Counted from the stretch's first letter, positions 19,921 through 46,400 are shown. The stretch is DNA of 64,000 nt from Marsupella aquatica (GCA_973895155.1 OZ316891.1:21092169-21156168), one strand, 5' to 3'. Numbers and translations are program-made. Notes: generated by a model not told the origin, from the sequence alone.

Positions 19921-22284
19921 CTCGGTGGAGACTGCTCAAGCTTTCTTGTTCTACTGAGATTTTGTTGTGTATTTTTGTTTCAATGTACCTTAGACAAGGT
20001 ACATCTTGTACTGTTGGATTTTCAAAAAGAATGGCACCCTCTTAATGTTCTATTCTAGCAAGAGTTTTCACTACCTCTAGCCCCATCCCTATCTATGAAT
20101 TTTTCAATCTTGCTCGTCACTATTTGCTACACTGTGTTAGATTTTTTTCTCAATTAATCAAGTAATGTTTAATTGAAGTTCCATACATGAGAGAGATGCT
20201 ATCTGTTCTCATGAGTGTGAGAAAGGAAGTCTTCTGGATAATGTGGGCCACTTTTTCTGACTAAGTGAACAATATTCATGCTACAGTGTGTTTCCTAAGT
20301 TTATGGTTTTGATTAAGTGTCACTAAATAAAATCGTTACATGAGAAGTACATGAAAAGCCACCACTTTTTTGAACAGGATTCACAATCGTTTAGAAGCTC
20401 AAAAGTTACCTCCTAGAAATATGCCCCATTCAAGAATGATGTGTGGGAAGTGTTTCAAAAGTGGGGCCAACACATTGTAAGGCCATCATGAGGTCCAAGA
20501 GACAATTACATACCAAGTCACCCAAAACTTGCTTTTATTAAGGTATTTGATAACAAAATTTTCCCCAGCTTTAACAAGGAATTATTATTATTTTTCTCAA
20601 AACAGGAGTTTTTTTAGTGAAACACAACTCATTTATACTACTTTGCTTTCCTTTGGGGGATACTAATACCTTCAGTTGTCTTATCTTACTAGAGAAAGTT
20701 GTTTTGATGATTCACCTGGATATTGTAGTCCAAAAAGTTTTTTATCACCATCAAATAGCCTTGTCCACCTTTATCTTCAGATATTTTGGGCAACTCCAAA
20801 GCCCGCTCCAAAGTCAATTTTATGGGCTTCTTCAGTTGGCAGCTTGAGACATTCATGGACCGGTGGGTTCCATCGGGAACCACCACTATCTGTTTGACCA
20901 CACACTTTTGTCAATGAATTTCAATCATGACATTATTGTGTGCTCAAGCTCAGCCAATCTACGATCAATCTCTCACCGTGAGTGCTACTGTGCCTCCACA
21001 GTGGCTTGCCCCCTTACAGCACTTCCATGTCCCACTTGAAAATTTGGTTATGACACTAGATGTGTATTAGCTAGCTTGTGGCACTTAAATTGAGTTTGAC
21101 CCTAAATTAACTCACCATATCATTGTACTGATCAATAGCTCTTTTCCTTCTTTTTGTAACTATGCTTTCCTCTTTGAATGTGTTCTTTGTACAGGTGTCA
21201 CCCCATGTTGCAAAGGGTGAAACTTTCTTAAGTGGGGGAAAGACTTGTTATAGCAGGTTGCCTTGTGAGGGTGACCAGTTCACCAAGGTTGCCATATGTT
21301 GTGCCAAAGGGTATACCTTGACGAATAAGGATTGAGGCAAGCCTCATTCTTCCAAGTTAATCCATTTGGCGCTCATAGAGTCTTGTGTAGTGTGGCCATG
21401 GTCTGAGATTGGAGCAATGTTGGTTGACATGTAAAACACATTAAACCCCAATTTAAGGAATACCCCAATTTAAGGAATACTGAAGTATTAGATTAATTCC
21501 AATTTTATCTAAATATTATAAGTTAATGAATGATCAACCTCTTTAACATTTGGTGGGATAGTCAAAAACTTCAAATGTTTTGTTGCAAGATCTTTATAAC
21601 AATGCATCACTAAATGACATCAAGTACCTCTTGATCCATGCACAAATCCTTAATTAAACTGTCATTCATTGTTTCAATTGTCAATTTAATTACTATAGGG
21701 TTGAATACAAAAAAGATTGACCACCCTTTACAACAATTAATAGGATTGTTGTATATTACAATGTCTACTGGACATTCATTTGAATGTCAATAATATCATG
21801 CCTTAATATCACCAAACTAAGGCCCCACTGTCTAACTAATATTATATCTTAAATAAACTAACCAACTAACCAACTTGTCTATTTAATTACTATAGGGTTG
21901 AATACAAAAAAAGATTGACACGCACCAGGGTGCGTGACCTACAATCATAGTATCACCCTTTAATTAGTTAGTTTCTATTGCTTTGACTCAATCAGGCATG
22001 GAACCATATAAAATCAGAAATCATTGAAAGTTGAGTTCACTTGAAGGTGTAACTATAATTATTATTTATTAATAGGATTGTTGTATATTACAATGTCTAC
22101 TGGACATTCATTTGAATGTCAATAATATCATGCCTTAATATCACCAAACTAAGGCCCCACTAACTACTATTATATCTTAAATAAACTAACCAACGATAAG
22201 ACTTGTCTAAACTTGAGTTCTCTGCCTACTACTATTCTGAGTTGCCTTTTAAACTGTATGCTAAACTACATGCTTCATTACTGT

Positions 22285-25200
22285 CTAGGATTTGTCACTT
22301 GCTATGCATGTCAAGAGATAGTCTCTTGCCTTGACAACAACATTCTTTGGAATTCCTACCAGCCCTGTCACTGGTCCTTTGCGTGCTTTGAAACACCACA
22401 AGGCAGAGGAAACATCTATTGTCTCAGCTTCCTTGTATATTGGAGTTGGATCACGTTCCCATTTCTTATCCCAAGAATCTGCCCACCGCTCTCTTGGCTG
22501 CCAGTCTGATTGACCACGTTGCTTCTTTGCCATAAATGGTCTAAACCACTCAACGCCACATACATGAGTAAGAAGGTTTTGTTCATTCATTGGTCCTTCT
22601 ACCACATCTGTAACAACTAACCCCATATGGACGGCATAAACATCCAGGTCTGAGTCGTCCGGCCGTACCAACACATAACAACCCTTCACAACATCAACCC
22701 TAGGGTTAAAACTCTCAGGAGGTTTATCTTTTGCTGGTCCCACATAATCCACTGTTGCCTCCAACTCACATGCCACATTTTGATATTCTGGTGGAACGTG
22801 CTCTCTCCATATTGATAAAGGCCAAAACCCGTATTCCAAGTTGTGTGCACCTTCAGGTTCATATTGCACCTGCTCACCCTGTAGAGTATCTACAATGTCA
22901 TTCCAATAATTGATGAGTTGTCCAACATCGCTTTGGTTCTTCCTCTTTTGTTCGCTTTAGAATAAACTCAAAGAATGACACATGCTTCTTCAAACCTGTC
23001 AGCACTTCAGGAAGCATTTTCAACTCCATCATTGGTAGCCGTTTGGGCACCCCAATTGGGATGTGAGGACTTTTGTCATCTTTCCATGACCACATTTCAA
23101 TACCTTCCTTAGGTAACCATCCCTGATCAGTTGACTTCATTTTGTATTGGAAGCATGGCATACTATCATGACGAACATAGAACCTAAACAGCCTGGGTTT
23201 TAAATGCCCCACCAATGCCTCAGGGCCCTTCAACATGAATGGAGCTAAGTAGTTTTTGAAATCTAGGACCTCCTGTAGAAAATGTGGGACTGCATTGGGT
23301 GTCCTTGCTCTCATGAACAAGGACATTAACTCAGGCAATGAGTATGTGGGTTATGCATCATAGACTCTGAAAAATGCCCGAACATACCGTCAACATCCTC
23401 ATGAGTATGCCCAACCACCATAAAACCAAGATGAACCTCTTCAAACACCTCCCTTGCCGTCAACAATGACAAATAAGCCATCATATGTCTGTTCTTGTTA
23501 ACTGAGGCACAATTATCCAGTTGTAGCTTCAATACTTGTGGAAGGGGCCTGAACTTTGGTGCCTCAGGTGCTGCATCACAATGTAACAATCTCAGAATGC
23601 TTTTAAATAAAACCCTAGTCAGACCCTAAACCCCAATTTAGGGTTTAGGGTTTAAACCCTATTAATGAAACCTTGGCTAGGAGGAGCAACAACTACACAA
23701 AGTAGAGTGTCAGTGTGTGTGAGCTTATATTATTAAATAATAATAAATTAAAGGATTGTGAGTAAAGTACCTAGGCTTGAGCCCTGGGCCCTTAGTGTTA
23801 CTAATACAGGGAGGACGTGCGAACAACGCAAGGGTATTTTTAATGTAATGCAAACTAATTTTTATAACAGTTTTTAAAGTAGGCAACATCCCTCTATATA
23901 CATTCACCACAATATTAGTAATAAGGCAAGAATCAAATACATGTCACATAAATCTTATGCAAGGGTACCCAAAATGCCAAGTACACGCGTCACTATATGG
24001 TTGACACACATGTCATCACTTCATTTGCACACGTGTCCATATAGTAAATCAGATATTTAATTATTATCATCTTAAGGCAAGTTTGGTTTCGTTGGTCCCC
24101 TTATGGTGGAACAAATGGGTTAAGGTAGACATGTTTACCCGCATGTTTAGGAGTTAAGTGGGGAGTTGAGTAAATTTTGGGCCAGGATCTTTGGGCCCAA
24201 CTTGGTTGGGAAACTGGGATTGATGGGGATCCATGGATTAATCCCACATGGACGGACAAGATTACTTTTGAATTCCCTTGAATCAAACAGCCATGTATGA
24301 GGCCAGATGTGTTTGTGTATTGAGGGAGGGGTCTCGAGCGCTCAAACAATGTTTGTTATAGTTGGTTCAGACTTTGAAGTATTATTCCTGGATTATACAT
24401 ATATAGTACTAATGAAAACTAGAAGTTCAGAGGCACTTTTGCGAACACTAAAACAAAACTGCAGGTCTATGTGTAAACTATAGGAAGAACTATAATTTTC
24501 TCTCGTCCTAATTTTGTTTATCTATATAAAATATGTACCTTGAACATCGAGCATAACATACAAGTCCCCTATGAAAGATAAAGTTTTAACTATTTCAGTA
24601 TGATATTTGTAATTCTAAAAATTCAAGGGTGTTTTCAATTCCTTGAAAAACTCTATTATAATTTATAAAAGGATAAAATTTAATAGGAAAAGTTAATATT
24701 TTTACATTAACAAGGGGATTTTTTTTGTGAACAAAAATATTAAGAAGGGGTACACGGGGGGTATCTGTTCTCAGGGGGGTTCACTTGATATAGTAAGAGT
24801 GAGGGCCCAGGGGGCTTGAGATGTAGGCAATGTCATCCTCAAATGCTCTAAGGACACTTGCCTCCAAGATATCTGCTCTCCCAAAAAGGAGGTCTTTAAA
24901 AAGACTTGTCGAGTCTGGCCCCTCCACAAGTGATTTGATCATTGGATTTGGGTTTTCCAACATCCTTAGTATTGAATCAATTGACCCAATAGTGATGTTG
25001 ACATCACCTGGCCACACTCCAACATGATATTGGGCTATGGCCTTGGGACCATGACCATGAGTAAGGATACCAGTGACAATAATTGGGAACTTTTGGGCAC
25101 CATCCACATGCTTAGGATTGAAGGGCATTCTTGGGAGAGCTATCTTTGAATGATCCATCTTATCATGAATAAGGCATAACACTTCCTTTGGACGATGGAT

Positions 25201-26699
25201 GGACTCATATCTCCAGGTATGATAGCACATTCTTTGTTGTGTGTGGTCTTGGTGATGTTCCTCCTTGTCACGCCTTAGGCCCTCTAACTCTTCCTTAGCT
25301 CCTATAAGGTTTGCTTTCCGTTGAAGCAACTCACTACAAGTTGTACACTTTGAAAAGTTGTTGCCCTTTTTGTGACGTGAGAACTCCCTGAAATACATCT
25401 GATGTAGATGACTCAAGGTGGGTTGGGAAATTGGAGGAAGACCAGCCTCCTGGTTGACAACATTAACCCTGTTTCTAATATTCTCCCAAGTAAGATTTGT
25501 TGGCAATTCCCTCAAAACCATCCTTGTATTATCTGCCATGGTTCTCAACTTGGCTGGATGATGATCAGCTGCCTCCTCAATAATCTCTTTCATTGACATG
25601 AACGCTTGAGATACTTTCTCGGACATACGCCTTTTTCCAGCATTACCATGGGTACCTATGTTCATTCCAGCCATCACAGTCTTCTTCAAGGCATAAAATT
25701 GAGTCTTTCCTCTTGAATGAATGATTCTCCATGCCTCCAAGCACAATACTTTGCCCTCCACTGCTAGAATCCTTTCTCCAGTACCCAAGTGTATTGTATT
25801 TTAATAGCCTTGATTTCCTCCTCCTTGCGCTCCACAAAAGATTTTGACCACCACTTTTGCCTAATTGCCATAGCCAAGTTGCGGTCCAAATATTGGCAAC
25901 AATGTTCACTACAACAGTCCTTAGTGTTTATCAACAACACATCTTGACGTGCCAAAGATGTGTCTCTTCTAGATGTCTGGGAAGATGGACTCTTTCTTTT
26001 TCTACTTTTATGGACGTAGGACCGCAGCTTGCCACTTGTTGGAGATGTGTTCCCTCCCACAGCTTGCCTGATGTTGTGGAAAGACAACAAGTTGCCATCC
26101 TTGGCAATGAGTTGGTCCATCGACCAAGCTTTTAAACAATCTCTATGCTTCAGGTGATCTATGATAGCTCCCTCGACAAAATCGTTGATCAGAATTCCCA
26201 CATGTGTATTCCCAAGGGTGACATCCCCAAGCTTCACTATAGGATCTAGAACATGTATAGTTGCCACTGCAAAAATCAACTTGTTCTCATCCACCACCTT
26301 TACAGGCATGCCCATCCACAAAGCCTTTGGTAAAACTACTTCCACACCAGACCGACTCTCATTATGGTTGTTCCCATCAGAATTTTGATTGACTGGATCT
26401 TGATCATCACCAACAGTGCCAAACACATCCTCCGATTCCATGGGAGCTCGAAAAGGCTGATTCCTTTCCCATACAAGGTAACCCCCAATCATGTCCTGCA
26501 AAAGTTCGCCATCTTTGCATAGAATGGTCTCGTCAAAAACTTCCTCCAATAGAAGAAGAACTTTGTCCGCCCCAAGAGGAACATTGTGACAAACCCTGGA
26601 AGGATCAAGACTTATCACGCGACCTTTTCCAACCTGTTTCTCACGTATGCCTATAATAACTTGTCCGCCTTCCCTGATCCAGACTGTCGATGTCACCAT
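22285..26699 (-). pseudogene. Sola-like (DUF7869-type) DDD transposase, roughly 1050 codons, frameshifted and interrupted by a 1.25-kb insert
   Basis: Motifs FSKCTTC..H, HDKMD, LQLDNCASVNKN and GFMVVGHTHEDVDGMF match the Sola-type catalytic signature. Two En/Spm TnpA-like repeats at the N-terminus. Frameshifts near 25790, 23335 and 22900. Confidence 0.78.
23582..24829. mobile_element. 1248-bp TG...CA insertion (solo-LTR-like) in the transposase
   Basis: Ends TGTAACAATCTCA / TGAGATGTAGGCA. Removing it restores EDDI-CDAAPEAPK in frame. No clean 5-bp TSD; CAATGT repeats overlap both junctions. Confidence 0.6.
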
Positions 26700-26769
26700 A
26701 ATAATTATGATCCTGCACATCAGAGAATATCACTGTAAGCGTACAGTCCTGTCATGTCCGTCAATTTCA

Positions 26770-27412
26770 CTGCACTGTCTTGTCACGTCGGTCAATAAGC
26801 AGAATGTAGTCAATGCACTGCGCTGCACGCGACTGGTCACGTGACCCTAGAGGTACCACACATACCGGCAACAGACTATGCATGGTCCGTCAGTCATTTC
26901 AAATGAATGAGAATGACCACAATCGATTACGATCAATCATTTCACATCCACTCAAAACAAATGAGTGGACAATCAGTAACTACTGAGGACAGTAGTGCTA
27001 ATAAGCGCCAGTAAAACGTCCATGAACTGCATTGTCCTGTCACGACCGTCAATAAGTAGGTAGAATGTAGTCAATGCACTGCCCTGCACGCAACTAGTTG
27101 CGTGACCTTAGTCAGAGGGTGTAGGGATAACAGGGTCTACGACGTAGAAGCTAGAAGGCTAGGCCCAAACTCTAGCTCATACTTGGTACTTCATAAGTAA
27201 GATACGATTGCGCGTGAGACAGGAAGATACAATTACGGATCTAAAGGCATCACACATACCGGTAACAGATTATGCATGGTCCGTCAGTCATTTCAAGTGA
27301 ATGAGAACGACTACAATCGATTACGAACAATCATTTCAACTCCACTCAGAAAAAATGAGTGGATAGTACCAATTTACCAATGAGTGGACACCGGACAGTC
27401 AGTAACTACTGA
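26770..27412. repeat. Duplicated segments upstream of the transposase, each carrying the 16-bp palindrome
   Basis: 26774-26850 resembles 27030-27110, and 26858-26985 resembles 27252-27411. Confidence 0.8.
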
Positions 27413-27729
27413 CCCGAGTCATAAGAAATCTCAGTACTTCACTAGCAATCAATATTCCCGGGGCGGTCGCCAAACGTGAAATTAAAGCCATAATTAGAGG
27501 ACAACTGAACTTCCCGCCAATTCTAATATGTGCTAGTCAAACGCGCACTCTTTTCTAGAAACTACTATGTACAATGACTAGTGGAGACTAAACAGTATAA
27601 AGCATTGAGATGATCCCTATTGCTCATCCCCCACACATTCCACTTTCTTGCTACTGGATAATCTATTTGCACATCAGCTCTCTCATTTCCAATTCTTAGT
27701 CTCGGTCCGCATCTCTTGTTTGAAGGGCG

Positions 27730-28272
27730 ATGACTACTCCGCTGAGCTCGAAGAATGAGGATGTTCCGACGGACGATTCAAAAGGTTCGACGTATCAAAT
27801 TTGTGGTACTCCTTACAGAATGTGTCAGCGATGTAATATAATGTTTACGGTGACTAAATCGGGTCAAATGTTTTGTGAGAGATGACATTGTTCACCACAT
27901 TTGTCGATGCAAGATCAGATGGAGACCAATCCGACAGAGATGACTACAAAGATGGCATCAGGGGAGAAGTTAAAGGGCAAAGCCCTCGTGGAATCCGTTT
28001 CGAGGGGGGAGAAGTTGAAGGCCAGAGCATGCGTCGAATCCATTTCGGGGGAAGCAGCAGCAAACGCTAAGACAGTCAAGAAGGAGGCCAAGAAAGTGGA
28101 CGCACCAAAGAAAAGGCAATTAGAGATGAACAAAGATTCTGATTTGTATTACAGAAAGAGCAAGCTGAGAAAATCTATGGACGTTAGGACTTGGGCAAAG
28201 GAAGAATTTCTGGATTCAAGGGAATCCACACCAGACACCGATGAGTGGATGCCTTCATCTTGGAATGACTGA
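27730..28272 (+). CDS. Small lysine-rich hypothetical protein, divergent from the transposase; probably two exons
   Basis: TATAAA at about 27596, ATG 27730 with a donor-like GT at 27785, and a 123-codon open frame 27901-28272 with a CAG acceptor before METNPTE. No family recognised. Confidence 0.4.
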
Positions 28273-28519
28273 CTCGATCGAAGTCAACAATATTTTGAGT
28301 AGTCGAAGATTAGAACTACAGATTCAAGAGTAGTTCATGTTAGAACTTGTTATAGATACTGTGTAGCTTAATTTCGTCCCGTGGAAAATAGTGTTCGAAA
28401 GACCAGGTCAGTTAAATTCCTGGATAGTGCTAGTGGATATGGATTCCACATCCGAAGTCCTTCGAGATCGATGTAACCATTTTTGCAATCAAGGAAAAAA
28501 CGAGATTCCTCTGACTGAC

Positions 28520-31262: not shown

Positions 31263-33964
31263 AAAACGTATGGACAACTATACTTGAACGCCATACAATT
31301 TTAGACTAGAGAATTCATTCGGATCCTCTACTAGTACTTCTGATACATTGCTTCTATATTGGACTTGAAACATGGATTGATCAAAATCGGAGTGAGAAAT
31401 TGGATCATAACTTCATTGACTCAATTCATGCATTGAATGCGTGATTTAAGGCAACTACTCTCCTCATTTATTGCGGAATTAATGCTGATTGATCCTTACA
31501 AGTTATTCAGTTGCGTGTGGTCTCAGTAATGTTGGTGGCAACCCTCCGATGTTGGCGGAAACCCTCCTCCCAGCCAAGCCTCTTCCTTCCAGCGTAGCCT
31601 CCTCGTCCCAGCCAACTAAGCCACCTCCTTCAAACTCCAATTTCCTTGAGTATCATGACCGAATCCCACCACCAGAGAATGACAACTTGTTGATCGTATC
31701 AAGATCAAAATCCTCGACCAGACAGTGATTTCAGAATAGCCGCTCTTTGTTGGTCCGCTAGAATGCTTCGATGAATGAGGCAGACTATGGAGGTTCTAAA
31801 TGTTTGTCGTCTCGCTTCGTCGCAACTCTCCCGCTTGATCGGATGTGCTCTCCCCAAGATTGAAGGTGATACAACAAGAACTGCGCCAGCGTTGCTTGAA
31901 TGAGCTCCGCCTCTAACTGGAATAGTCGAATGATCCAATCTGCTCCACCTCAAATGTGCCTTGGATCAGCCTCCGCTGAGAGCCCACCTAGTATCCTGGT
32001 CAAGAGAAACTGAAAATGAAGAATGATCCGTGAGCAATGAGATCAGTCTATTGACTCCATGGAGGATGTGTTCATCTGGACTCGATTTTGATTTTGAAAA
32101 TTGGTTGAGTCTCCAGTCGTGAGAATCATTGTACAGGATTGATTTTGAATATCGGTTCTCCCCGACCGTGAGAATCGTTTTACATTGTTTAGAGTATGGG
32201 TTTGAATTGGCAAGATAGAGAGTGGAGTACGGATCCGGATCCGACGGTCTCCACTACCAAAATGGAATGATTTTGAAGTTCGCCTCCACTACGTGATGGA
32301 ACGATTGTGAGAAAGTTGTCGTTCGTTCACATTTTGGATTTGAATTGGCAGATATAGTGAAGATACGGATCCGGATCTGGATCCGGGGATCCCCACTAAC
32401 AATCTTTTGTAGTTGCATAATTACCGGTTTAAATTTCAAATTGGCGATCAAATAGAAATCTCCTTTAGTACGGCAAATCAAAAGGAATCCGATAATCTTT
32501 TTTTCACGATTGCATAGTTTGTTCAGTCGATGGTGGAGTGTACGGAGATCATCTGGAACCTTCTTGTCGCTAGGCTATTATTAGGGTTATGCTAAAACAA
32601 TACCCTACTTAGTCCTTCCTTAGTGTCGGCGCCCACAGTCTCGAGTTCACTGTTCATTGTTGTTGTTTCTCGCTCCCTAGACTTTCACGCGTCTGCTCTC
32701 GTCGCTCTCGCTCTCGCTCTCGCTCCTGCCCTGGATTTCATTTTTGTCGTTGTAGCTCATTCGTTGTGGTCAGGTGCTTGTCGGCGCGTTGCAGCTCTTA
32801 GTAGTTGTCGATCATTTCGACCAGGAGCTCGTTGGCGTGTTGCAGCTCGCATTTACAACTCGTATTCACTTCTAGTTTGCTAGTTCGTTGCAGCTAGTTT
32901 TTTGGGAGTGCTTGTCTCAGCTCGTGTCAGCCAATTTTAAGCTCATATTAGCTCGATCAACGTGTTTTAGCAGCTCAAACTACTTTTTGGCAACTTGTTT
33001 CAGCTCCTTCCATTCAGCATTCAGGTTTGTTTTACCTCTTTGAATCTTCAGGTTTAGTGCGCTTTTATTCATGCTTAGTTTGCCTATCCACAGCTTTGAT
33101 TGTACTTCTGAAAGAGTCTTTTTAACTTGACATAATGAGTTCCTTAGCAGTAAGCACATGTTATTCAATTGGTGGCAGCGAAGCTCTATGTATAGAAGTA
33201 TAGAAGCTGTGTTGTTGTTGCTTAGCATATTAATATCTTCAATCTTATATTTACTTTCTGGAATGCCGCAGCAAGGTCTTCAAGTGCTTGGACGTCAATC
33301 TCTCAGACGATTACATCAATTTTTCAGAATTCAGGTGCAATTTCTACATTTTCTGCTAGTGTTGATTGTGGTTTGCTAAAATTTCTCTTGATTGTTAAGC
33401 TGAGTTTTCATAATGCGGTTTGTTTGTAAACTCAAATATGTGTGAATCATACAAACTCACTAATTAAAATACAACCTGAATGGTCTTAAGTAAGTCATTA
33501 CAAACTTGCACGCTGTGAATTTAATCATATAAACTCTCATGTTATGTGAATCTCATTACACTGAATCCTTTAATTGACGAATACAACCAGTAGACTGCTA
33601 AATTGAATCATCTTAGCTGGATCATTCTCTAAACTTCTGATATATAATAGTTTCACAATGACAGAGCTCAAACATCTGAATTATTGTAAAGTTCATGAAT
33701 GAATACAAATGAATGAAATCATGCTTACTCAGATTTCCTTGTCCGTACGGGTCAGTAATCACAGTTGTATCACTATATTATCCTATTGTCCAAAAGTTGT
33801 TTGAGCTATTGACGCGACCAGTCGCATGAAAATATTGTGAGATTCCTTTTAGGACCAGTTAACGCAACCAGTCGCATGTGAGAAGGAAACTGGATAGATT
33901 TACTGAGTGCGTACCATATCCAAATCTCCACAGGGAAGGTTCAGTGGATATAGTTGTTTAGGTT

Positions 33965-34262
33965 CCGTTGACGCGACCAGTCGCATCTGAGGTAGCTCTC
34001 TCATTGACTGGTTCTGTTAGAGGAGGTAAGGTTCCTTTTAGGACCAGTTGACGTGACTAGTCGCGTCTGAGGTAGATCTCTCATTGACTGGTTCTGTTAG
34101 AGGAGGTAAGGTTTCATTTAGAAGCAGTTGACGCGACCAGTCGCGTCTGAGGTAGCTCTCATTGATTGGTTCTATTAGAGGAGGTAAGGTTCTTTTAGGA
34201 TCAGTTGACGCGACCAGTCGTGTTTGAGGTAGCTCTCTCATTGACTGGTTCTATTAGAGGAC
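33965..34262. repeat. About 80-bp tandem repeat (about 4 copies), each with the ACGCGAC-NN-GTCGCGT palindrome
   Basis: Palindromes at 33971, 34051, 34131 and 34208; degenerate copies at 33812, 33862 and 34342. Confidence 0.92.
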
Positions 34263-34398
34263 GAAGCAACATTTATGATTTGTCACGTAGTGACCCGAAA
34301 AAATCACTCTCAAAGAATTGTTTATACATTCTGATTTGTAGATGCGACCAGTCGCATGAAAATAATCTCTGGGATATATCATTTGGCTGAAAAGAGTC

Positions 34399-34950
34399 AT
34401 GGGCGAACCTGGTCTGGAGAGCTTCAGATATCTATGCCCAATATTTGACGTTTTGGACAGAAGCCAAGATGGTCTACTGGCGGGATATTCTGTATTTGTT
34501 GAAACACTACTACCTGGACTTCCAGATTTCATTGTCGCGGAATTGATATGGCCTCGGATCAAGGAGACTTTTAATTCCTTGGCTAATGTAGGAAATTTCT
34601 CAATAAAGGAATTGGATGAGTTTGTAGGACTATCTTCGGTGTGTCGCAGATGGTGCCACCTTGTTGGGAATACCTATCTTCTGGGTGTAATCAAGTTGAT
34701 TTTATTAGATTTGGCTTTCCCACGAAATCCTACTAAACCGATCGGAAATGAGTCTCTCTCATCGACAGTTCAAAGTTTCTTCCAGAAATACCCAAGAATT
34801 AAATTCATGGGGTCAATGTCCAAAGATCTTAGGGAACTCTTCACAAAGACTTACGATGCTCTTCACCCTCTTGAAAAATGGAAATTTACAGTCAGATGCC
34901 ACGAAGTTGGATACCTTGAGGGTGACATCTACACTTTTAAGGAATTCTAG
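34399..34950 (+). CDS. F-box-like protein 1 (183 aa)
   Basis: LLPGLPDFIVAELIWPRI...LSSVCRRWCHLV resembles an F-box with an internal insertion; paralogous to the neighbouring ORFs. Confidence 0.65.
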   Translation: MGEPGLESFRYLCPIFDVLDRSQDGLLAGYSVFVETLLPGLPDFIVAELIWPRIKETFNSLANVGNFSIKELDEFVGLSSVCRRWCHLVGNTYLLGVIKLILLDLAFPRNPTKPIGNESLSSTVQSFFQKYPRIKFMGSMSKDLRELFTKTYDALHPLEKWKFTVRCHEVGYLEGDIYTFKEF

Positions 34951-35015
34951 TTAACTTACGTGACCAAGCGCGTTGTATGTCTTCTAACAATGTTTTGTGA
35001 TATGATAAAAGCAGG

Positions 35016-35582
35016 ATGAGCCGACTTTTGAATGAGGCTCGAGATTTCCTTTCATCTCATGAAAGGAAATAGAAAACAATATGGGATACGCTGGATGAAA
35101 CCTCCTCTAGTCTCATTGGAGGAATACCAGATGTTTTGGTCATTTCAAACATTTGGCCAATACTCTACGAACACTTTATTTCAATTGAAAGATTGCGTGG
35201 ATATTGACACCTCGATAATGATTTGGTTATCGATAGGGTCCAAGACCTTATTCGGCTTGGAGCTTGTAGCAAGAAGTGGAACTTTTTAGTTACAAATACA
35301 AGGTTATGGGCTATCCTCAAACAAGCAAACCGGATTGTCGATGTCGCAAATGAAGCTCTTTACGACATACCCAAAACTGATGAGTTGGAATTTGACTTAG
35401 TTTGTCGAGTTATTCGATAGGATATTTCTATGCTTCCAAAAATATATGTTCTTGGGACTACTACTTCTGACAAAATTGCATTGTTTACAAACAAATATAA
35501 CAATTTAGATGAGGAAGAACGAGATGTCCTAATCGAAAGGTTTGGTAGATTTTCTCAGAATCTTGGTGGTCCCAGTTCTTAA
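35016..35582 (+). pseudogene. F-box-like protein 2, with three in-frame stops
   Basis: One frame from ATG 35016 reads SLIGGIPDVLVISNIWPIL...LGACSKKWNFLVTNTRLWAILK...LDEEER. Closest to 40054-40602. Confidence 0.65.
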
Positions 35583-35616
35583 TGGATAGGTTCTTGTTCT
35601 TAATCTTTTCCATATT

Positions 35617-36177
35617 ATGCTGCAGTCCTTTGACATGAATCGAAAATCTCATCGTCAAATGATGATGGAGCGCATTGCACGTGCAAAGGTTATGAACCGA
35701 AACATGATATGGAGTCAAGCTGAAGACCTGATACCCGATCTTCCGGACAATATTGTTGAGAAATATATTTGGCCATTAGTCAAAGAGTTTTCCCACTGTC
35801 TTGGGAATTTGTCGGATACTGCGATTAAAAATTGGGTCATGGACTTGATCGCCATTCGAACAGTCAGTAAGAAGTGGTGCCACATAGTTACTTATAGTAG
35901 TACTTGGGCGACGGTCACCTTGGTAGCTTACGACTTCATTGATAGACCAGGATATGAATCGCTTCGAAGGCATTTGACTTCACGGAGTGTAGCATTAAGA
36001 TTTACAGAATCCATCAGAACTCTCCGGCCGCTGGACATTCTGGGTGGATTTGAAGGATCTGAACTTGACACGTTTAGGAACCTTTGGTTTTGGTTAGATG
36101 AAGATGAGCGAGAAGATTGGGTCACGATAAATGTTCCTAAAATGCAATTCGGCATGACGCGACCATGCGCGTGTTAG
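35617..36177 (+). CDS. F-box-like protein 3 (about 180-186 aa)
   Basis: LIPDLPDNIVEKYIWPLV...IRTVSKKWCHIV...LRPLDILGGFEGSELDTFRNLWFWLDEDER. Confidence 0.68.
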   Translation: MLQSFDMNRKSHRQMMMERIARAKVMNRNMIWSQAEDLIPDLPDNIVEKYIWPLVKEFSHCLGNLSDTAIKNWVMDLIAIRTVSKKWCHIVTYSSTWATVTLVAYDFIDRPGYESLRRHLTSRSVALRFTESIRTLRPLDILGGFEGSELDTFRNLWFWLDEDEREDWVTINVPKMQFGMTRPCAC

Positions 36178-36222
36178 TATTTTATAATAAATGTTTAACT
36201 TTCAATATTTGTCTGTTTCAGA

Positions 36223-38704
36223 ATGGATCCTATCGGAACCTCAAAGCGAAAAAGAGACTCGTCTAAAGCTACTTCTCGTAAGAAAACCAAGACAAAAATG
36301 ACTCCCGCGGAGACATCCATACTTGCATATCGAGGAAAGTCAATCAGAGAGAGAACAACGGAGACAAAGAGTATCCATCTCTTTGAATCGACTGAGATAT
36401 CCGATTTTGGAATAGTCGTTCGCAATGGGGCTGTCCGTCTTGTGGTGGCAAAAAAATGATAAAGCTACAGTTTTGGAGAGATCACAAATTCTTGGGTGTT
36501 TCTTTGAGAAGAACATGAAAGTTAAAGAGTGTACAGAGGGATTGGTTCAGTTTAGGGTTATCAGCGACGACCAGCAGGAGGATAAAATAAGCATTTGTTT
36601 GGATCGAACGCAATATGTAACCTTCAATCAGCCCAGAATCGATGATCTTCCAGGTGCAAGGCACGCCTTGGAAAAGGTTACTAGTGTGGGATATCCTTCC
36701 GATCTAGAGGGATCAACGGGAGATTTGATTTGTCAATACATTATTGACGTACTTGAGTTCTAGAGAGTTCCTTTCAACCAGGGATTTTGCTTCGGAAAGG
36801 CCCCGCCAGTGAGCAAGGTTGAAGTATACTCGGCGGAGAATCTTCCAAAAGTAATTACCTCAGCGAATGTCGGGGCTCTGTTCGATTCTTTCCTCAAAGA
36901 ATATAGTGTTGTGAATATATTTAACAGCAAGTCATTTTTTGTTGAGACATCACGTTGTCATCTTGCACCGGACCACATCAAGTGCCGAGAGTGGAATCAG
37001 GATTACACAAATAGGCTAAAGAATTCACTCCTCTCTCATTCGGCTATAAAGTTCGAGAAGCGATGCTGCTTTTTAGTCCCTGTGAAGTGAGTTCAGTCAG
37101 AGGCCGACAGAGATCCCGACTACAATGGGGCGCTCTACGATTCATCGCCAAAGGAGGAGGACATTATGACCAGTCATTTCTGGATACTCGGAGGCCAACA
37201 CACAATAATGGCGTACAAATTGCTGAGAGAGGACGACAAAGTTAGCCAAGTTGTACGAGACGCTTGCGGTACTGTAGAAGCTGTAATGTTTTGGGCAATG
37301 CTCAACAACGACAACAATGTTCATTTGATGGGATTATCGAAAGCTCTGAACCACTATCATCAAACATCAATGGAAGAAGGACAGTTTCTCACCATTGTAC
37401 GACAGTGTCGTAATATCTGGAACTCATTTGGGTGGCCTGGATCACATTATCGTCATCCAAATTGGAAGGTATATAAATAACCCTCTTCGATCACATTATC
37501 GTTTAAACTTTTGTCACGCGAACGGTCGCGTCAAGCTTAGAATTATCATGTTTCCATTGTTTTTAGGTATTTATGAGAGCTACAAGTTTTGTTTGCCCAT
37601 GGGCTCAAATGGGGAAGAACGAAATGATGAAATTTGGAGAATTGGCTCCGTTTCTCTTTACAATGGAGGACGAAACATTCAAGAAGTGGATGGAGGTCTA
37701 TGAACTATCAAGGACAGGAGAGCTTGTAATTTACAAAGGAATTTTATAGAGGAACGCCGTCAAAATTGCGGATAATTTCCATGTGCTTATCATCTTCTGA
37801 AGAAGATATTTCATTCTTATCAAGGGTGCTCAGACTAGGTTCTTCGAAAGGCAGTGGAATATATGTTGAGCGGAAGACTGTCTATACTCAAAAACCGAAG
37901 CATCAAAGTGAAATCTGGGAAGGCGAGGAAGTCCTCTGAGGCTCCAGTGTTGTCAACGACCAGCATGAGTTTGGAGCAATTCTGTATAAAGAAGAAGACG
38001 AAAGTTGAGTTTGAGATTTTATTATTGAGTAAACTCAACGGGGATACATCCACCCGGACGGAGCTAAAAAGTCTGACAGATTCAGCGCGGAAATTACGGG
38101 TCCAAGGAATGATTGATCGCTTTAATATCAACAAGATGGTGCTGAAGCAGGAGATGCGTTGAGTGGTTATCTGAAGAAGTGCTTAAATATAAATATTAGT
38201 AATGATAATTTGTTGAAAGAGATCGACCCGATATTCTACAGGTTGGTGGAAGGAATACATAAATCAGTTGATAGTCAAGGAAACCAACTAGTGCGGCCGG
38301 TCGGTGAGAGGCTGAAATTGCGATCCCTGCAAGATATACAAAATGCTGGGTTTGCAGACTGTATCATACGTGAAGACAAGAACCTTGCGAGCTTGATTTA
38401 TTTTGATCCCTCATCAATGGGAGATTTGCGTCCGCCAAATTGCTCATTCTATGAGGGGTTATTTCGTGCTACTAGCGAGATAGGGGCAAAACCACACCAT
38501 GTGGTTATTATTGTAGCCTCTCCCGTTGAGTCTTACTTAATCAAACGGGAATTAGGGAAGTACACACACTATGTTGCTGTCGATAGCCATTATATTCAGA
38601 AGCGGTCGAAGGAGAAGAAGCTTATTGTAACCTACGCTTTTCACAGCTTGGCCTTCAAACACAATTTTGGACCGACCGAGAAGTGTGTCGGAGTTCTCGT
38701 TTAG
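36223..38704 (+). pseudogene. Long degenerate gene: ParB/Srx-like domain followed by a degenerate adenine-methyltransferase-like region
   Basis: Contiguous reading through a frameshift (about 36455) and stops. FWILGGQHT at 37178-37204. GT-AG intron 37469-37566. C-terminal ASLIYFDPSS...FYEGLFRATSEIGAKPHHVVIIV resembles MTase motif IV and the following helix/strand. Confidence 0.55.
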
Positions 38705-39529
38705 CCCGATCCCATTTTTTTTCTAAGGCAATGCAATGACCGATAAAACTGGCAAAAACTCTCCGAAACGCCACTTTCCTCCATTGCATCGCCGGGGAAT
38801 GCAGGGAGCGATACGTGCATCGGGTTTTATATTCCGTCAGTGAAAAAGTCCTTACTGCGAGTAACTTGGTCCGAACCGCGTAATCCAGGAACGACCACGC
38901 ACTAACCGAGGTAAAGGGGAAACTTAACCATGGTTAAGGGGAAATTAACCATGGTTTAGAGCGTCTCCATAAAGAGGAGCAGGCTGCCCATAAAACATTT
39001 GCTTTCGCCAGAGCAAATATCTCCTGACTGAGAGCGAATACCAAACTCCCATCGAGTCTTACATTCCTCCCAAGCGATTCGACTCTTTCCTGTTCAAGTT
39101 CTCCATGTAAGACTAACTAGTCATTTAGTGTAAAATGTCCAGATCCGAGCGGATTGCGATAAATTTATCGCATTCTGCATTCCTCTGTTGCAATCATTTG
39201 ATCCAGTGTTTAGAGAGGTGTTGCCTTCATTCCGATAAATTTATCGGAGTCTTCATTCCTTTCATGGAAAGAGGAGTAATTGAGAATCCGATAAATTTAT
39301 CGGAGTTGTCATTTTTGTGAAAGATTGAATTCAGGGCTTAGGTGTCTGAGGAAGTCATATTTTCAATTTGAATGCGGAGTGCAATAAACTTATCGCATCC
39401 TCCTATGAGAATAATTTTCCTTTGTTTTGTTTGGAGACTCATCTTCATCTCTGATGTCGCAATGTTGCCAGGTTTAGAAGGCACAACGGAAGGTCAATTG
39501 CACTCCGTGGACAACAGGTATTGTGACAA

Positions 39530-39859
39530 ATGGCTGTCTTCCTTGAAAATCGTGTCAAACGTGCACGTCGGTTGTACAAGAGACTCGTGCGACTCAAAGT
39601 TCTCCCCATCGGTATAGGAGCATTGTGGATGGGTGGTACTGATCCTGGAGATAGGCGGAATCCTCTCCGCATTGAATTTTGCAAAATAAATGATGTAGAA
39701 GTTCCAATTTGTTCGAGGTTGATGTTAACGGCGTGTTTACATTCTTTGGAGTTTTCTTGTAACTATTGTTGTCGTCGTCTTGACAACAAGTACCACAAAC
39801 AGACTCACTTATGTTGTAAGATTTGGAACGAAGACCCTTGGGTGAACCTTTCACGATGA
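39530..39859 (+). CDS. Small Cys/His-rich hypothetical protein (109 aa)
   Basis: Open frame with C..C.H....CNYCC......H..HLCC, followed by AATAAA at about 39906; same strand as the cargo ORFs. Confidence 0.35.
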   Translation: MAVFLENRVKRARRLYKRLVRLKVLPIGIGALWMGGTDPGDRRNPLRIEFCKINDVEVPICSRLMLTACLHSLEFSCNYCCRRLDNKYHKQTHLCCKIWNEDPWVNLSR

Positions 39860-40053
39860 GTGTTTTGACCTTTTCATTGAGGCGTGTCTTGTAAGGACAT
39901 ATTTAAATAAACAAGTCCTACCCTTGCGCAGCGAATATAATACGTCACGAGTCCTAATCGTTAAACTGTCGTGCAGGGTTGGTACTGTGGATGTGTTTGG
40001 TTACACCTGGTGATTGAAGGTATTTTTATTGGTGGTTTTGGTAGCTCTGCTTC

Positions 40054-40602
40054 ATGGTTGCATCGGAGAATCTAATCATTGTAAAGATGGGATCCATTTT
40101 AGCCCACGAGCGTAGGAAATATATTCGAGGAAAAGTGCCCGGTGTGGAATGCGAAAGTTTGTTGAATGGACTTCCCGATCAACTCGTTGAATCTCACATT
40201 TGGCCCCTCCTAGCCTTGTCTTGCACACAAGATGAACACCTTGGCCTTGACCTAAAACTTCTACCAAAAGAACGACTGACTCGAATGAGAACAATCATTT
40301 GTCTTGGAGCCACCTCAAAGAAATGGAACCATCTTGTTGTTGGTACACGATTTTGGGCGCTATTGAAATATGCACTCCGTGAGATCAATGACATAAACAA
40401 AATGCTCACAAGCATTCCTAATGCCGACCTTCTCTCAAACATACATATTGCTAGGGTCTTCCAAGAGGAAACTCATTTCCTCCCTCCCATAGATATGCTT
40501 GGGTGCTTTTTGTATGAGCAGTTAGATCAGTTTCGTAGAGTTTGGATAAATCTTGGAGAAAGCGGGAAGCGGACAATTCTTGCATGGCATGGACGAGTCT
40601 GA
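40054..40602 (+). CDS. F-box-like protein 4 (182 aa)
   Basis: LLNGLPDQLVESHIWPLL...LGATSKKWNHLVVGTRFWALLK...LPPIDMLGCFLYEQLDQFRRVW. Confidence 0.68.
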   Translation: MVASENLIIVKMGSILAHERRKYIRGKVPGVECESLLNGLPDQLVESHIWPLLALSCTQDEHLGLDLKLLPKERLTRMRTIICLGATSKKWNHLVVGTRFWALLKYALREINDINKMLTSIPNADLLSNIHIARVFQEETHFLPPIDMLGCFLYEQLDQFRRVWINLGESGKRTILAWHGRV

Positions 40603-40763
40603 GTGGATGAGGCATTGCTGCGAACATCCGATAAATTTATCGCACTCCTCATTCCTCTAGTTGATTTTGGGTGCTCTAAGGTTTGCTCGAGAAGAGCTTG
40701 TAAAGAAACACTTTGAATGTAATTGACTCTGCCTCCCCTGACTTCGGTTTGTGTGGTTCAGAG

Positions 40764-41327
40764 TGTATTTATCTGATGTTGGTATTGCAAAAGTGGTTCC
40801 TTCATATGGAAGTTGCAATTTGAAATTGAAGCGATAAATTTATCTGATGTTGGTATTGCAAAAGTGGTTCCTTTGTATGGAAGTTGCAATTTTGAAATTG
40901 AAGCGATAAATTTATCTGATGTTGGTATTGCGAAAGTGGTTCCTTCATATGGAAGTTGCAATTTGAAATTGAAGCAATAAATTTATCTGATGTTGGTATT
41001 GCCAAAGGGGTTCCTTCATATGGAAGTTGCAATTTGAAATTGAAGCGATAAATTTATCTGATGTTGGTATTGCAAAAGTCGTTCCTTCATATGGAAGTTG
41101 CAATTTTGAAATTGAAGCGATAAATTTATCTGATGTTGGTATTGCAAAAGTGGTTCCTTCATATGGAAGTTGCAATTTTGAAATTGAAGCGATAAATTTA
41201 TCTGATGTTGGTATTGCAAAAGTCGTTCCTTCATATGGAAGTTGCAATTTTGAAATTGAAGCAATAAATTTATCTGATGTTGGTATTGCGAAGAGTTTTC
41301 TTCATATGGATAGGAATTTTGAAATTT
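40764..41327. repeat. Tandem array of 71-72-bp units (about 8 copies) built around GATAAATTTATC
   Basis: GCGATAAATTTATCTGATGTTGGTATTGCAAAAGTGGTTCCTTCATATGGAAGTTGCAATTTGAAATTGAA repeated head to tail with no unique spacers. Confidence 0.95.
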
Positions 41328-41741
41328 AACCGATGAACCGAAGGATCTTAGTATTATCGACTAGTATTTTTGTCGCCCATAGTTTTCGCGATAATTTTAT
41401 CGGACTGTGCATTGCTGTTGAAAGAATGGCATGTTGACTATGGTCACTTGCGGAGGTAACTGGTCAATTGCGGAGGTAACTACAAGGTAAGTTTGACGAA
41501 CCGTGCAGTAATTCTTATCGACTGTGATGTAAAATATTTTTGGTAAATATCCAAAAACTGAGAAAACTAAGATTGGGTCGGAGCTTTTGTGGCTCAAATC
41601 CGGAGTCCGATACAGTTATCGCACTTGGCTCGAAACATGGATATGGATTTATAGATAAGACCTTTCATATATCTTTGGAGAGCGTGAATATGAGGTTGAG
41701 GAGAAAGTTTTTCGGATCTAATTGTTCCTTGATAATATGAA

Positions 41742-42506
41742 TTGTTCCCTAAGGTCCCATCTATAAGTCTACCACTCATTCCTTTGCTATCCGGGCCAAA
41801 GGATGCCACTACTATGTACATAAGGCAAAAAATAGAAGAAAAAGATGAGAGAAGAAAAGATGATCGCTTCGACGCAAAAATTATCAAAATGTGGGAATAA
41901 GGAGAGAGTGCCCCTCACCACTTTATTTATATTGAATCCAAAAGGGCATGGATTACGCCCAAACGCTTGGATGAAAGCCAAGTGACACACATCCAACGTA
42001 GGAATGTGTGCTAGTACTATTGTAATCAAAACAAATTACACATGCAAGTAAAATGACTAATGCATGCACCTAAAATAATTTGTGCATGCATGCACCTTGT
42101 GGCTTGCATATTTGCTCATCTTGCATGCGCATAAAACAACTAATGCATGCGCATAAAATAATTTGTGCATGCACCTTGTGGCTTGCACATTTGCTCACCT
42201 TGCATGCGCATAAAACAACTAATGCATGCAAATAAAATAATTTACATGCATCTAAAACAAGTTGTGCATGCACCTTGTGGCTTGCACATTTGTTCACCTT
42301 GCATGCACATAAAACAAAATCTAATGCATGCAAATAAAACAATTTGTGCATGCATCTTGTGGTTTGCATAGTTGCTTACCTTGCATGCACATAAGTAATA
42401 GTCAAACTATTTAGTTACACCGTAACAAAATATAAGCCTAATCTATATACTTAATAATATACTTAGTGGTAATGATTTTATCATGAATAATTGAATTATC
42501 ATGACA
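41742..42506 (-). repeat. Gypsy 3' LTR (partial), with ATGCAT-rich internal tandem repeats
   Basis: Matches 48949-49715; similarity ends at 41742. Confidence 0.92.
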
Positions 42507-42559
42507 TATCACCCCTACCAAACCTGTGCATCCTCCAGATGCACCACACCTATAGATTG

Positions 42560-45500: not shown

Positions 45501-46104
45501 AGCCTTCAGCGGGTCATCAGAGACGGCGCCCCGCCATCCCGCATTGTTTAACGAGACGCCTTTCGGAAATCCTCATTTCCTTCCTTGGATTCAGGTCCTC
45601 TCAACTCCTTTCGATTCCTCCAATGTCCAGGTTTCACCACAGGAAATTGGATAATCCGCAAATCATCTCGACTCCTCACCTTTGCCATATGAGTACCATC
45701 TGGCAAAACCTTGTATTCCAATCAAGCTTGAGTAATATAGGGCTGCCCTAAAATCAAGTCATAGGGTAAGCTATCATGCACAAAGATGTTAGTTGGCTCA
45801 ATCACATTGCCAACCTTCATTGGAACTCCTGGACATCCTCCCCAAAGTGTATTCTTTGAACGATTGATTGAGTTTACGACCACTGGGTATCACAATCAAC
45901 CATCCATTGCCCAACATCATAGATGCTTCTTGACATTAGATTTACCTCTGATCCAGTATCAATCAATGCTCGGGCTTTGCCCTCCATCCCCACAAGCTCC
46001 ACTTCCACCACTGAGCAAGTTCTTGCCCAAAATGGTTCCAAGATGGACTCCTTGCCATCTCCCAATTCAAGATTCTTCATGGTAGAGGCACACATGACCC
46101 ACAC
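42560..46104 (-). pseudogene. pol: Gypsy pol (protease, RT, RNase H, integrase), fragmented
   Basis: ALIDTGSEVNLM; YSNRWFTIRKKNGKLRFIQD; DLYSGYDQF; PFLDD; EVRRFLGAC; ETDCLPL; HRG...CKTC; DRGE...YNPEGNGKIER. Confidence 0.92.
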
Positions 46105-46239
46105 ACTTTGTGAAGCCTTGAGTACCTCCTCTTGACTGATTTTTGCTACTTATTATGATTTGTCAAACTTTTCTCCCATCAATGATTCCCATCTTCCCAA
46201 GTCCAATAGCTTAGCTTCTGACATCTTTGGTTCAGAAAC

Positions 46240-46400
46240 TACCTCCTTTGAAGACTCTGGCATCTGTGGTCCAGAAACTTCATCATTTGAAAACTCTAGC
46301 ATCTGTGGTCTAGGGATCTTCTCCTTTTAAGACCCTGACATCTGTGGTCCAGGGATCTCCTCTTTTGAAGACCCTAGCATCTGTGGTCCAGGGATCTTCT
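46240..46400. repeat. About 39-bp tandem repeat between gag and protease
   Basis: CATCTGTGGTC(C/T)AG recurs four times (about 46261, 46300, 46339, 46378). Confidence 0.8.

What the first reader, a model, noticed from the sequence alone, without database searches (positions are those of the whole stretch)
21900..41740. Candidate giant cargo-carrying Sola-like DNA element with F-box-like and ParB/MTase-like genes
Seen: a Sola-type transposase, a divergent small gene, 255-bp and 80-bp arrays, four paralogous F-box-like ORFs and a ParB-like gene lie contiguously. One palindrome family spans 21920-37531, on both sides of the transposase and within the cargo. Known: Sola elements are usually described as TIR elements encoding just a transposase. 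Inference: this is one decayed element of 15-20 kb or more, carrying chromatin- or proteolysis-related accessory genes. Its termini are not visible here; the right side is cut at the truncated gypsy LTR.
Basis: partly seen in the sequence, partly recalled or inferred. Interest (0 to 1): 0.82.

Follow-up and report, generated by a model that had tools for sequence, protein, structure and literature searches.

The report
Giant plant Sola transposon, palindrome-marked cargo
A broken copy of a highly repeated jumping gene of at least 20 kb, likely from a liverwort-type plant, carries a predicted ParB-type DNA-binding gene, four related F-box-like genes and two private families of short palindromes, and the ParB-type protein likely binds those palindromes to keep the cargo arm unsilenced, a design already proposed for algal transposons.

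Summary
The feature is real. From 21,535 to 40,200, 28 of 28 bins are high-depth in two public runs, against a low-depth flank, and a sharp left end at 21,444-21,462 has different flanks in other copies. It holds a broken DUF7869 (Sola-type) transposase on the minus strand and, facing away, a small ORF, four paralogous F-box-like ORFs, a spliced ParB/DUF3723-like gene and a Cys-rich ORF. The right end is lost at a gypsy element with unmatched target duplications. Corrections: the palindrome family lies only at 26,827-37,516 (21,920 is a loose variant); a second family occupies 39,157-41,608; the methyltransferase and F-box labels stay below threshold. The cargo arm keeps CpG (o/e 0.84-0.91) while the transposase has lost it (0.30). 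A similar cassette sits in a liverwort inside 9-bp-TSD ends without a transposase, so it moves between element types. The design is published: Ectocarpus Sola1-1_Ec32 (21.5 kb, ParB-methyltransferase gene) and red-algal Plavaka cassettes. Verdict: new variant of a known kind; the binding and anti-silencing mechanism is inferred.

The parts
21444..21478 (.). Left (3') terminus, reading AACCCCAATTTAAGGAAT inward; a 17-bp unit is duplicated in this copy (21,445-21,461 and 21,462-21,478)
   Evidence: Depth step and 6, 7 and 7 contigs with different flanks loose before 21,462 in runs X1, X3, X4; TRF; sequence
21686..22200 (.). Subterminal repeat region with variable unit number among copies; loose palindrome at 21,920
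   Evidence: Direct repeat D17; joints 21701-21910/21917 and 21952-21726
22285..23570 (-). Transposase exon 2 (QLDNC, GHTHEDVD), frameshifted near 23,347 and 22,950
   Evidence: DUF7869 E 2.6e-26; tblastn of P0004; table 4
23782..24812 (.). Nested hAT-like non-autonomous insert, 11-bp TIR, 8-bp TSD GGCTTGAG, at the exon 1 end
   Evidence: Sequence; joint 23773-24813 skipping 1039 with 8 shared letters, depth 3398 in X3; hAT label inferred from the 8-bp TSD (recalled rule)
24814..26720 (-). Transposase exon 1 (N-terminal domains, Cys clusters, HDKMD), frameshifted near 25,800
   Evidence: 63% and 37% identity to P0002, which ends at the same intron
26827..37531 (.). Territory of palindrome A (ACGCGACnnGTCGCGT): 19 sites in promoter region, arrays, intergenic gaps and the ParB-gene intron
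   Evidence: chance mean 0.01
27886..28272 (+). Small divergent ORF, Lys-rich, no family
28519..31209 (.). 255-bp tandem array with two palindrome A sites per unit, split by the solo LTR
   Evidence: joint 28499-30479 in X3
29130..30391 (.). Solo LTR-like insert (TG...CA, AAAAA flanks)
   Evidence: sequence; higher depth than its neighbours
33812..34357 (.). 80-bp array and flanking palindrome A sites upstream of the F-box-like cluster
34399..34950 (+). F-box-like ORF 1
35016..35580 (+). F-box-like ORF 2, three in-frame stops
35635..36177 (+). F-box-like ORF 3, open
   Evidence: 19 relatives at E<=0.001; model pLDDT 86.8
36223..38850 (+). Spliced ParB/DUF3723-like gene (exon 1 36,223-37,468; GT-AG intron 37,469-37,566 holding a palindrome; exon 2 with a possible degenerate methyltransferase region); two stops and three frameshifts; the 3' end is approximate
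   Evidence: P0001 and P0007; Atlas; splice signals; table 4
39157..41621 (.). Territory of palindrome B (CGATAAATTTATCG), including the 72-bp array 40,767-41,334
39530..39859 (+). Cys-rich small ORF, weakly similar to an ORF beside the ParB-like gene in L001
   Evidence: pairwise E 2e-05, 23% identity
40087..40602 (+). F-box-like ORF 4, open
41743..49715 (-). Gypsy-type LTR retrotransposon at which the element breaks off; LTRs 97.7% alike, flanks TGAAT and GCGTC do not match (not part of the element)

Best explanation
This is a dead, right-truncated copy of a multicopy giant Sola-type cut-and-paste transposon whose cargo arm, facing away from the transposase, encodes a predicted ParB-fold protein that likely binds the element's own dispersed palindromes and would keep that arm free of host methylation in active copies. 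Shown: the left end, the repeat status of the whole 21.4-40.2 kb stretch, the gene set, the two palindrome territories, and the CpG contrast. Inferred: that all parts travel in one unit (about 0.8); that the ParB-like domain has the ParB fold and reads palindrome A, as ParB reads parS (about 0.55); that binding protects from silencing, as VANC does for VANDAL (about 0.4); that the C-terminal part is a catalytically dead methyltransferase fold (about 0.5); that the four small helical proteins act as Skp1 adaptors or decoys (about 0.3). The cassette is modular and is exchanged between transposon superfamilies.
For: Depth of at least 3,196 in 28 of 28 bins over 21,535-40,200 in X2 and X3 against 54 and 102 in the first flank bin; X1 steps from 10.7 to 1,464-3,051 at 21,421-21,540, with different flanks before 21,462. 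End AACCCC after a flank ending in A resembles Sola1-1_Ec32 (AACCG termini, 4-bp TSD biased to end in A; supplement row). Majority copies carry extra letters at frameshifts of both genes: 23,347 (3,015 of 3,089 in X2), 38,150 (4,709 of 4,709 in X2; 4,154 of 4,655 in X3). Joints 31830-34199, 31985-34831 and 28499-30479 link internal parts in other copies. Palindrome A lies only in non-coding DNA and arrays, the pattern reported for VANC targets (PMC5735166) and beside the ParB-like PAG3 (10.1101/2025.02.11.637652). CpG o/e: transposase exons 0.30, cargo coding 0.84, cargo side 0.91, gypsy interior 0.27; Fisher p 4e-7, best break at 26,424, 400 bp before the first palindrome. L001 (Calypogeia fissa) has two F-box-like ORFs, a ParB-motif ORF, a methyltransferase C-terminus (phrog_3008 E 1.4e-4), Ulp1 (E 8e-26) and its own palindrome arrays. 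L038 has a decayed ParB-motif gene head-to-head with a Sola-type transposase; it is the top hit among 6,361 chunks.
Against: No contig or read spans transposase to cargo; the longest listed pieces are under 400 bases, and 1,423 loose ends were not shown, so internal termini are not excluded. Summed contig depth is not a copy number. ParB assignment rests on Atlas features for part of a relative and a motif; the profile hits to L038 and L001 are not significant (E 0.28 and 3.3; best reversed control 3.7), and the single-sequence fold failed (pLDDT 35). The methyltransferase region matches nothing. The F-box-like model has no structural match (best Foldseek E 1.7, best Z 3.9). 0 of 80 loci with related transposases carry the window's cargo families by tblastn. 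CpG is not retained in the old L038 cargo gene (0.36 against 0.34 for its transposase) and only slightly in L001 (0.67 against 0.48-0.61). This copy has TG or CA where related copies have CG at many listed cargo sites, so it is not protected now. Host genes in the window are also CpG-rich (0.77-0.97), so origin alone could explain the contrast.
Confidence: 0.55

Rival explanations
1. One giant element, but the palindromes are transposase or transpososome sites, or promoter elements, and the cargo arm is CpG-rich only because it was captured recently from CpG-rich DNA; the ParB-like protein aids pairing or target capture and has no anti-silencing role.
For: A loose palindrome lies near the left end (21,920). 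Related transposases in metagenome contigs have a palindrome of their own close to both sides of the transposase. CpG retention is absent in L038. Host genes have similar CpG o/e.
Against: Strict palindrome A sites are absent from the terminal 5.3 kb and sit in the intron and gaps of the cargo. L001 keeps palindrome arrays beside a ParB-motif gene with no transposase. Paralogues at 25-38% identity argue for an old cargo family.
Confidence: 0.2
2. A chimera: a Sola element with palindrome A (21.4-38.9 kb) joined to the arm of a sister element with palindrome B (39.1-41.7 kb: Cys-rich ORF, F-box-like ORF 4, 72-bp array).
For: The two palindromes occupy non-overlapping territories. L001 and the other loci examined show one dominant palindrome each. 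Loose end at 39,087 in X2 and joint 39089-39282 in X3.
Against: Depth does not step at the border (12.7k, 17.6k, 9.6k in X2; 16.5k, 18.6k, 12.0k in X3). No terminus-like motif matching the left end occurs there. A fusion fixed in the master copy would still be one element.
Confidence: 0.15
3. Chance nesting: an ordinary Sola transposon of about 5 kb beside an unrelated high-copy cargo element, possibly of Mutator type.
For: A similar cassette occurs without a Sola transposase between GAG...CTC ends with a 9-bp TSD in L001. 0 of 80 related transposase loci hit the window's cargo. CpG and palindromes change abruptly near 26.4-26.8 kb.
Against: No reverse copy of the left end occurs anywhere in the window. 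Depth is unbroken across 26-28 kb. The head-to-head layout is the published Sola1-1_Ec32 layout and recurs in L038.
Confidence: 0.08
4. The cargo arm is an endogenised virus or plasmid fragment.
For: Closely packed short ORFs, a prokaryote-type ParB domain and F-box-like genes are typical of large DNA viruses (recalled).
Against: Spliced gene with a GT-AG intron at the same place as in P0001 and P0007. No relatives in viral or prokaryote contigs or PHROGs. No viral hallmark gene among the ORFs scanned.
Confidence: 0.02

Closest known systems
Sola1-1_Ec32 of Ectocarpus (PMC12477816; passages and supplement rows read; figures not seen)
   Same: About 21 kb Sola-type element; ParB-like plus methyltransferase-type gene on the strand opposite the transposase; nested insertions; similar terminal bases (AACCG there, AACCC here); proposed self-binding and self-modification.
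   Different: Land-plant-type host (inferred); four F-box-like paralogues, a Cys-rich ORF and a small ORF; two dispersed palindrome families and three arrays; no recognisable methyltransferase motifs; no long TIR could be seen (282 bp there).
Plavaka accessory cassette PAG1-3 of Bostrychia and other red algae (10.1101/2025.02.11.637652; passages read; supplements not read)
   Same: ParB-like accessory protein with adjacent tandem inverted repeats proposed as its binding sites; cassette moves between transposon superfamilies.
   Different: There ParB is fused to a 2OG oxygenase and the methylase to SET, on an EnSpm-related transposase; 'F-box' does not occur in that paper's main text.
VANC/VANDAL anti-silencing of Arabidopsis Mutator-like elements (PMC5735166; abstract and section 9 read)
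   Same: Family-specific short motifs amplified by tandem repeats in introns and upstream regions; functional analogy for the proposed mechanism.
   Different: VANC has DUF1985/DUF287 domains and a 9-bp non-palindromic motif; no VANC-type domain was found among the window ORFs scanned.
Zisupton/KDZ elements with an F-box domain (PMC12062965; passages read)
   Same: F-box associated with a large DNA transposon.
   Different: There the F-box is part of a transposon protein isoform; here there are four free small ORFs with about 25 extra residues inside the motif.
DUF3723 accessory gene of fungal Starships (PMC12256816; passages read)
   Same: Best Atlas look-alike of the ParB-like domain; accessory gene of giant elements.
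   Different: Starships move by a tyrosine recombinase captain (DUF3435); none was found among the ORFs scanned.

Membership tests
Sola superfamily (Sola1-like) | DDD-type transposase of the Sola kind | tested here: met
   DUF7869 E 2.6e-26 and three acidic motifs; that DUF7869 with these motifs marks Sola is recalled, not shown by a call
Sola superfamily (Sola1-like) | Match to the published Sola1 RNase H profile | tested here: inconclusive
   Only positions 31-81 of the profile were read by eye: similar spacing, but its invariant E and R are not seen in the window; the profile could not be run
Sola superfamily (Sola1-like) | Terminal inverted repeats | tested here: inconclusive
   Left end defined; no reverse copy in the window; two X1 contigs carry an 11-base reverse copy behind 21,650, a hint only
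Sola superfamily (Sola1-like) | 4-bp TSD (AWWT in insect Sola1; biased to end in A in Ectocarpus) | not testable with these tools
   Right end missing; left flank ATTA fits the Ectocarpus bias but not AWWT
Sola1-1_Ec32-type giant elements | ParB-like gene on the strand opposite the transposase | tested here: met
   Orientation from sequence; Atlas 0.95 DUF3723 and 0.91 ParB_N for relative P0001; fold not confirmed
Sola1-1_Ec32-type giant elements | N4C/N6A methyltransferase domain fused to ParB | tested here: inconclusive
   No profile or Atlas hit for 38,126-38,701; a DPSS string at the expected place is a by-eye motif only; L001's counterpart hits methyltransferase profiles weakly
F-box proteins | F-box motif above the Pfam cut-off | tested here: not met
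   4 of 4 window ORFs and 19 of 19 relatives fall below the curated cut-off, though 10 of 19 relatives hit F-box families weakly
F-box proteins | F-box fold and Skp1 binding | tested here: inconclusive
   Confident helical model without a clear structural match; binding not tested
Mutator-like elements | MULE transposase and 9-bp TSD | tested here: not met
   Window transposase is DUF7869; a 9-bp TSD is seen only for the L001 element
Starship | DUF3435 tyrosine recombinase captain | tested here: not met
   No such hit among 30 ORFs scanned; a phage integrase hit at E 0.019 inside the ParB gene is sub-threshold

The most novel reading that the evidence does not exclude
Seed-free land plants harbour giant DNA transposons with a swappable anti-silencing cassette: a ParB-type clamp loads at element-private parS-like palindromes and shields the cargo arm from methylation, while a lineage-wide family of small F-box-like proteins hijacks or decoys host SCF ligases against silencing factors. 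This copy would record a cassette swap, with two palindrome territories in one element.
Probability: 0.2. Interest if true: 0.8.

Novelty: new variant of a known kind. Interest (0 to 1): 0.45.

Why it matters
If the inferred mechanism holds, a bacterial partition-type protein has been turned into a sequence-specific counter-silencing device in plant transposons, parallel to VANC but with a different fold and short palindromic sites. The sites, the candidate protein and a sharp CpG border make the published algal proposal directly testable in a land plant. The F-box-like family (19 relatives, one named from a liverwort) recurs beside the ParB-like gene in two differently ended elements, which points to transposon capture of F-box-like genes, a route that PMC12062965 lists without evidence. 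The architecture itself is not new.

Tried and rejected
No whole genome was held, so copies could not be aligned directly. No RNA holder was listed; this says nothing on expression. The P0001 contig had no DNA on record. Single-sequence fold of P0001 failed and was not searched. Fold searches of the F-box-like model gave no clear match; Cdc4-Skp1 rows at E 5.6-5.9 were disregarded. PDB sequence searches gave nothing relevant. Viral and prokaryote contig scans found no relatives of the transposase or the ParB-like protein; the F-box alignment was too variable to scan with. Rfam: no match at 21,000-42,000. TIR searches around 27 long related-transposase loci gave no convincing pairs. In some searches (round 2) and 120 some pieces were translated in the wrong frame; those rows were dropped and redone. 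Pairwise tests of the methyltransferase-like regions were not significant. No complex prediction was run, as no Skp1 sequence was among the session's proteins. Bao et al. 2009 was not held; Sola features beyond searches are recalled. Ten literature searches found the algal precedents but no report of such an element with F-box-like cargo in land plants; subscription papers and Repbase were not searched.


Full report
Setting. The window is eukaryotic, repeat-rich and about 43% GC. No whole genome was held. The host is inferred to be a seed-free land plant, probably a liverwort: the only named relatives of the cargo are from Calypogeia fissa, and Sola1 is listed for Physcomitrella (PMC9033089, passages). 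The element lies in a pile of transposons between two copies of a duplicated host segment.

What is there. On the minus strand a transposase runs from about 26,720 to 22,285. Its catalytic piece hits DUF7869 at E 2.6e-26, it has the motifs HDKMD, QLDNC and GHTHEDVD, and it has five longer relatives at 31-63% identity. It is broken by three frameshifts and by a 1,031-bp insert with 11-bp inverted ends and an 8-bp duplication; run X3 holds the form without the insert. Facing away on the plus strand are a 128-codon ORF, a 255-bp array split by a solo LTR, an 80-bp array, three F-box-like ORFs, a two-exon gene from 36,223, a Cys-rich ORF, a fourth F-box-like ORF and a 72-bp array. At 41,743 a gypsy element begins. 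Its two LTRs are 97.7% alike over 767 bases but its flanks differ, and no reverse copy of the left end occurs in the window. The right arm was therefore probably lost by recombination or deletion at that LTR (inference).

Is it one element? Contigs of four runs were laid on 20,201-40,200. In X2 and X3 the summed depth is 54 and 102 in the first bin, 1,222 and 1,999 in the second, and 3,196 or more in all 28 remaining bins, mostly 5,000-20,000. In the more distant X5 and X6 depth concentrates on the transposase, with a smaller X6 peak on the ParB-like core. A finer laying puts the step at 21,421-21,480 in 4 of 4 runs; 6, 7 and 7 contigs of X1, X3 and X4 run off before 21,462 into different flanks (agreement about 0.5). 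This copy duplicates the terminal 17 bases, so its true end is near 21,444 and reads AACCCC. Majority copies carry extra letters at frameshifts in both the transposase and the cargo gene (table 4), so both were probably intact in the spreading form. Joints in other copies link internal parts of the cargo arm (table 5).

Palindromes and CpG. Palindrome A has 19 sites at up to 2 mismatches, all between 26,827 and 37,531, in non-coding DNA, arrays and the cargo intron (chance mean 0.01). The site at 21,920 is a perfect palindrome but differs at four positions. Palindrome B has 10 sites at 39,157-41,402. The territories do not overlap, which I cannot explain; a cassette swap is one reading. Prompted by an earlier AI note (e1-10602133) I measured CpG: o/e 0.30 in transposase exons, 0.84 in cargo coding DNA, 0.91 over the cargo side, 0.27 in the gypsy interior, 0.18 in the left flank, 0.77-0.97 in host gene regions. 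CG against GC counts differ at p 4e-7 and the best single break is at 26,424.

The cargo proteins. Exon 1 of the large gene has two intact relatives, P0001 and P0007, that end at the same intron. The Atlas places residues 190-410 of P0001 with DUF3723 clusters (0.95, 175-183 shared features) and a ParB_N cluster (0.91, 117 features); sequence profiles find nothing and the fold failed. The putative methyltransferase region has no support beyond position and a by-eye motif. The four small ORFs are paralogues of a family with 19 relatives sharing an LP.DLV...IWP...S(K/R)(K/R)W pattern; F-box hits are frequent but all below cut-off, and a confident all-helical model matches no solved structure clearly.

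Relatives elsewhere. The Calypogeia locus L001 holds two F-box-like ORFs, a Cys-rich ORF weakly like the window's, an ORF with the ParB-like motif (z 6.4 to P0001; hhalign probability only 3%), a methyltransferase C-terminus, Ulp1 and arrays of a different palindrome. The module is an 11.1-kb insert in a gypsy reverse transcriptase with a 9-bp duplication and GAG...CTC ends and no transposase. So the cassette is not confined to Sola ends. Of 80 metagenome loci with related transposases (the best 80 of 219), forming 58 non-redundant groups with 27 of 9 kb or more, none hit the window's cargo by tblastn or the F-box-like profile. But L038/L039, L050/L052 and L081 carry a decayed gene opposite the transposase whose motif is the top hit of a ParB-core profile among 6,361 chunks (E 0.28, reversed control 3.7; pairwise z 7.3), and six groups carry NIF phosphatase-like sequence.

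Mechanism. Shown: a multicopy Sola-type element with a defined left end, a divergent cargo arm, private palindromes and a CpG border. Inferred: the transposase cuts and pastes the whole unit; the ParB-like protein binds palindrome A and keeps the cargo promoters open in active copies; its C-terminal part is a degenerate methylase fold that binds rather than methylates; the F-box-like proteins may engage Skp1. Rivals are given with odds in their sections.

Comparison and novelty. PMC12477816 (passages and supplement rows) describes Sola1-1_Ec32, 21,549 bp, AACCG termini, 4-bp TSD, with a ParB plus N4C/N6A methyltransferase gene opposite the transposase, and proposes self-binding. The Bostrychia preprint (passages) describes a ParB-like accessory gene beside tandem inverted repeats and a cassette that moves between superfamilies. 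PMC5735166 (abstract, section 9) gives the VANC analogy; PMC12062965 (passages) the Zisupton F-box precedent; PMC12256816 (passages) DUF3723 in Starships; PMC12973397 (passages) finds active Sola and Ginger elements rare in plants; PMC3845634 and PMC5751038 (passages; supplement parts) give Sola1 features. The preprint's supplements could not be seen and may list further hosts. Unreviewed notes of this scan report many such elements in the same genome; they are leads, not support, but they lower the rarity of this copy. What this locus adds is the fourfold F-box-like cargo, its recurrence with the ParB-like gene under other ends, two palindrome territories and a measured CpG border. Verdict: new variant of a known kind, interest 0.45.

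Noticed in passing
L001 about 849-11,960: Complete 11.1-kb cargo element inside a gypsy reverse transcriptase in Calypogeia fissa: 9-bp TSD GTTGGGAAG, GAG...CTC ends, Ulp1, methyltransferase C-terminus, ParB-motif ORF, Cys-rich ORF, two F-box-like ORFs, palindrome arrays of 47 and 127 bp; no transposase seen.
   Followed up: partly
L024, L033, L038, L043, L070, L072/L073: NIF/FCP1 phosphatase-like sequence within 10 kb of Sola-type transposases in 6 of 27 non-redundant loci of 9 kb or more, upstream in 5 of 6; no background control.
   Followed up: partly
L038/L039, L050/L052, L081: Decayed gene with a ParB-like motif upstream of and opposite to the transposase; two or three independent insertions. 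L053/L061 has an Ulp1-like ORF in the same position (by eye; Pfam only E 0.022).
   Followed up: partly
L022-L081: Palindrome TGGTGGCCACCA recurs on both sides of these transposases, and a conserved 123-aa ORF lies just upstream in 27 loci.
   Followed up: partly
window 3,432-10,004 and 50,444-60,090; 13,930-14,510: Host segmental duplication (82-91% alike) with a 2OG-Fe(II) oxygenase gene and a Cir_N-like gene; a third, cut copy of the oxygenase at 13.9 kb.
   Followed up: no
window 11,911-13,410; 14,516-17,192; 18,818-19,940; 21,003-21,037: Other inverted-repeat elements: 143-bp TIR element, 78-bp IR element with a zinc-knuckle ORF, a GC-rich element, and a tiny repeat with many flanks.
   Followed up: no
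window 23,600-23,660: Telomere-like CCCTAAA repeats and a near copy of the terminal 14 bases at 23,630 inside the transposase intron.
   Followed up: no
window 38,903-38,956: 22-bp repeat with a third short palindrome at the border between the two palindrome territories.
   Followed up: no
window 29,323-29,405: The solo LTR carries its own ACGC-N8-GCGT sites in a 31-bp repeat.
   Followed up: no
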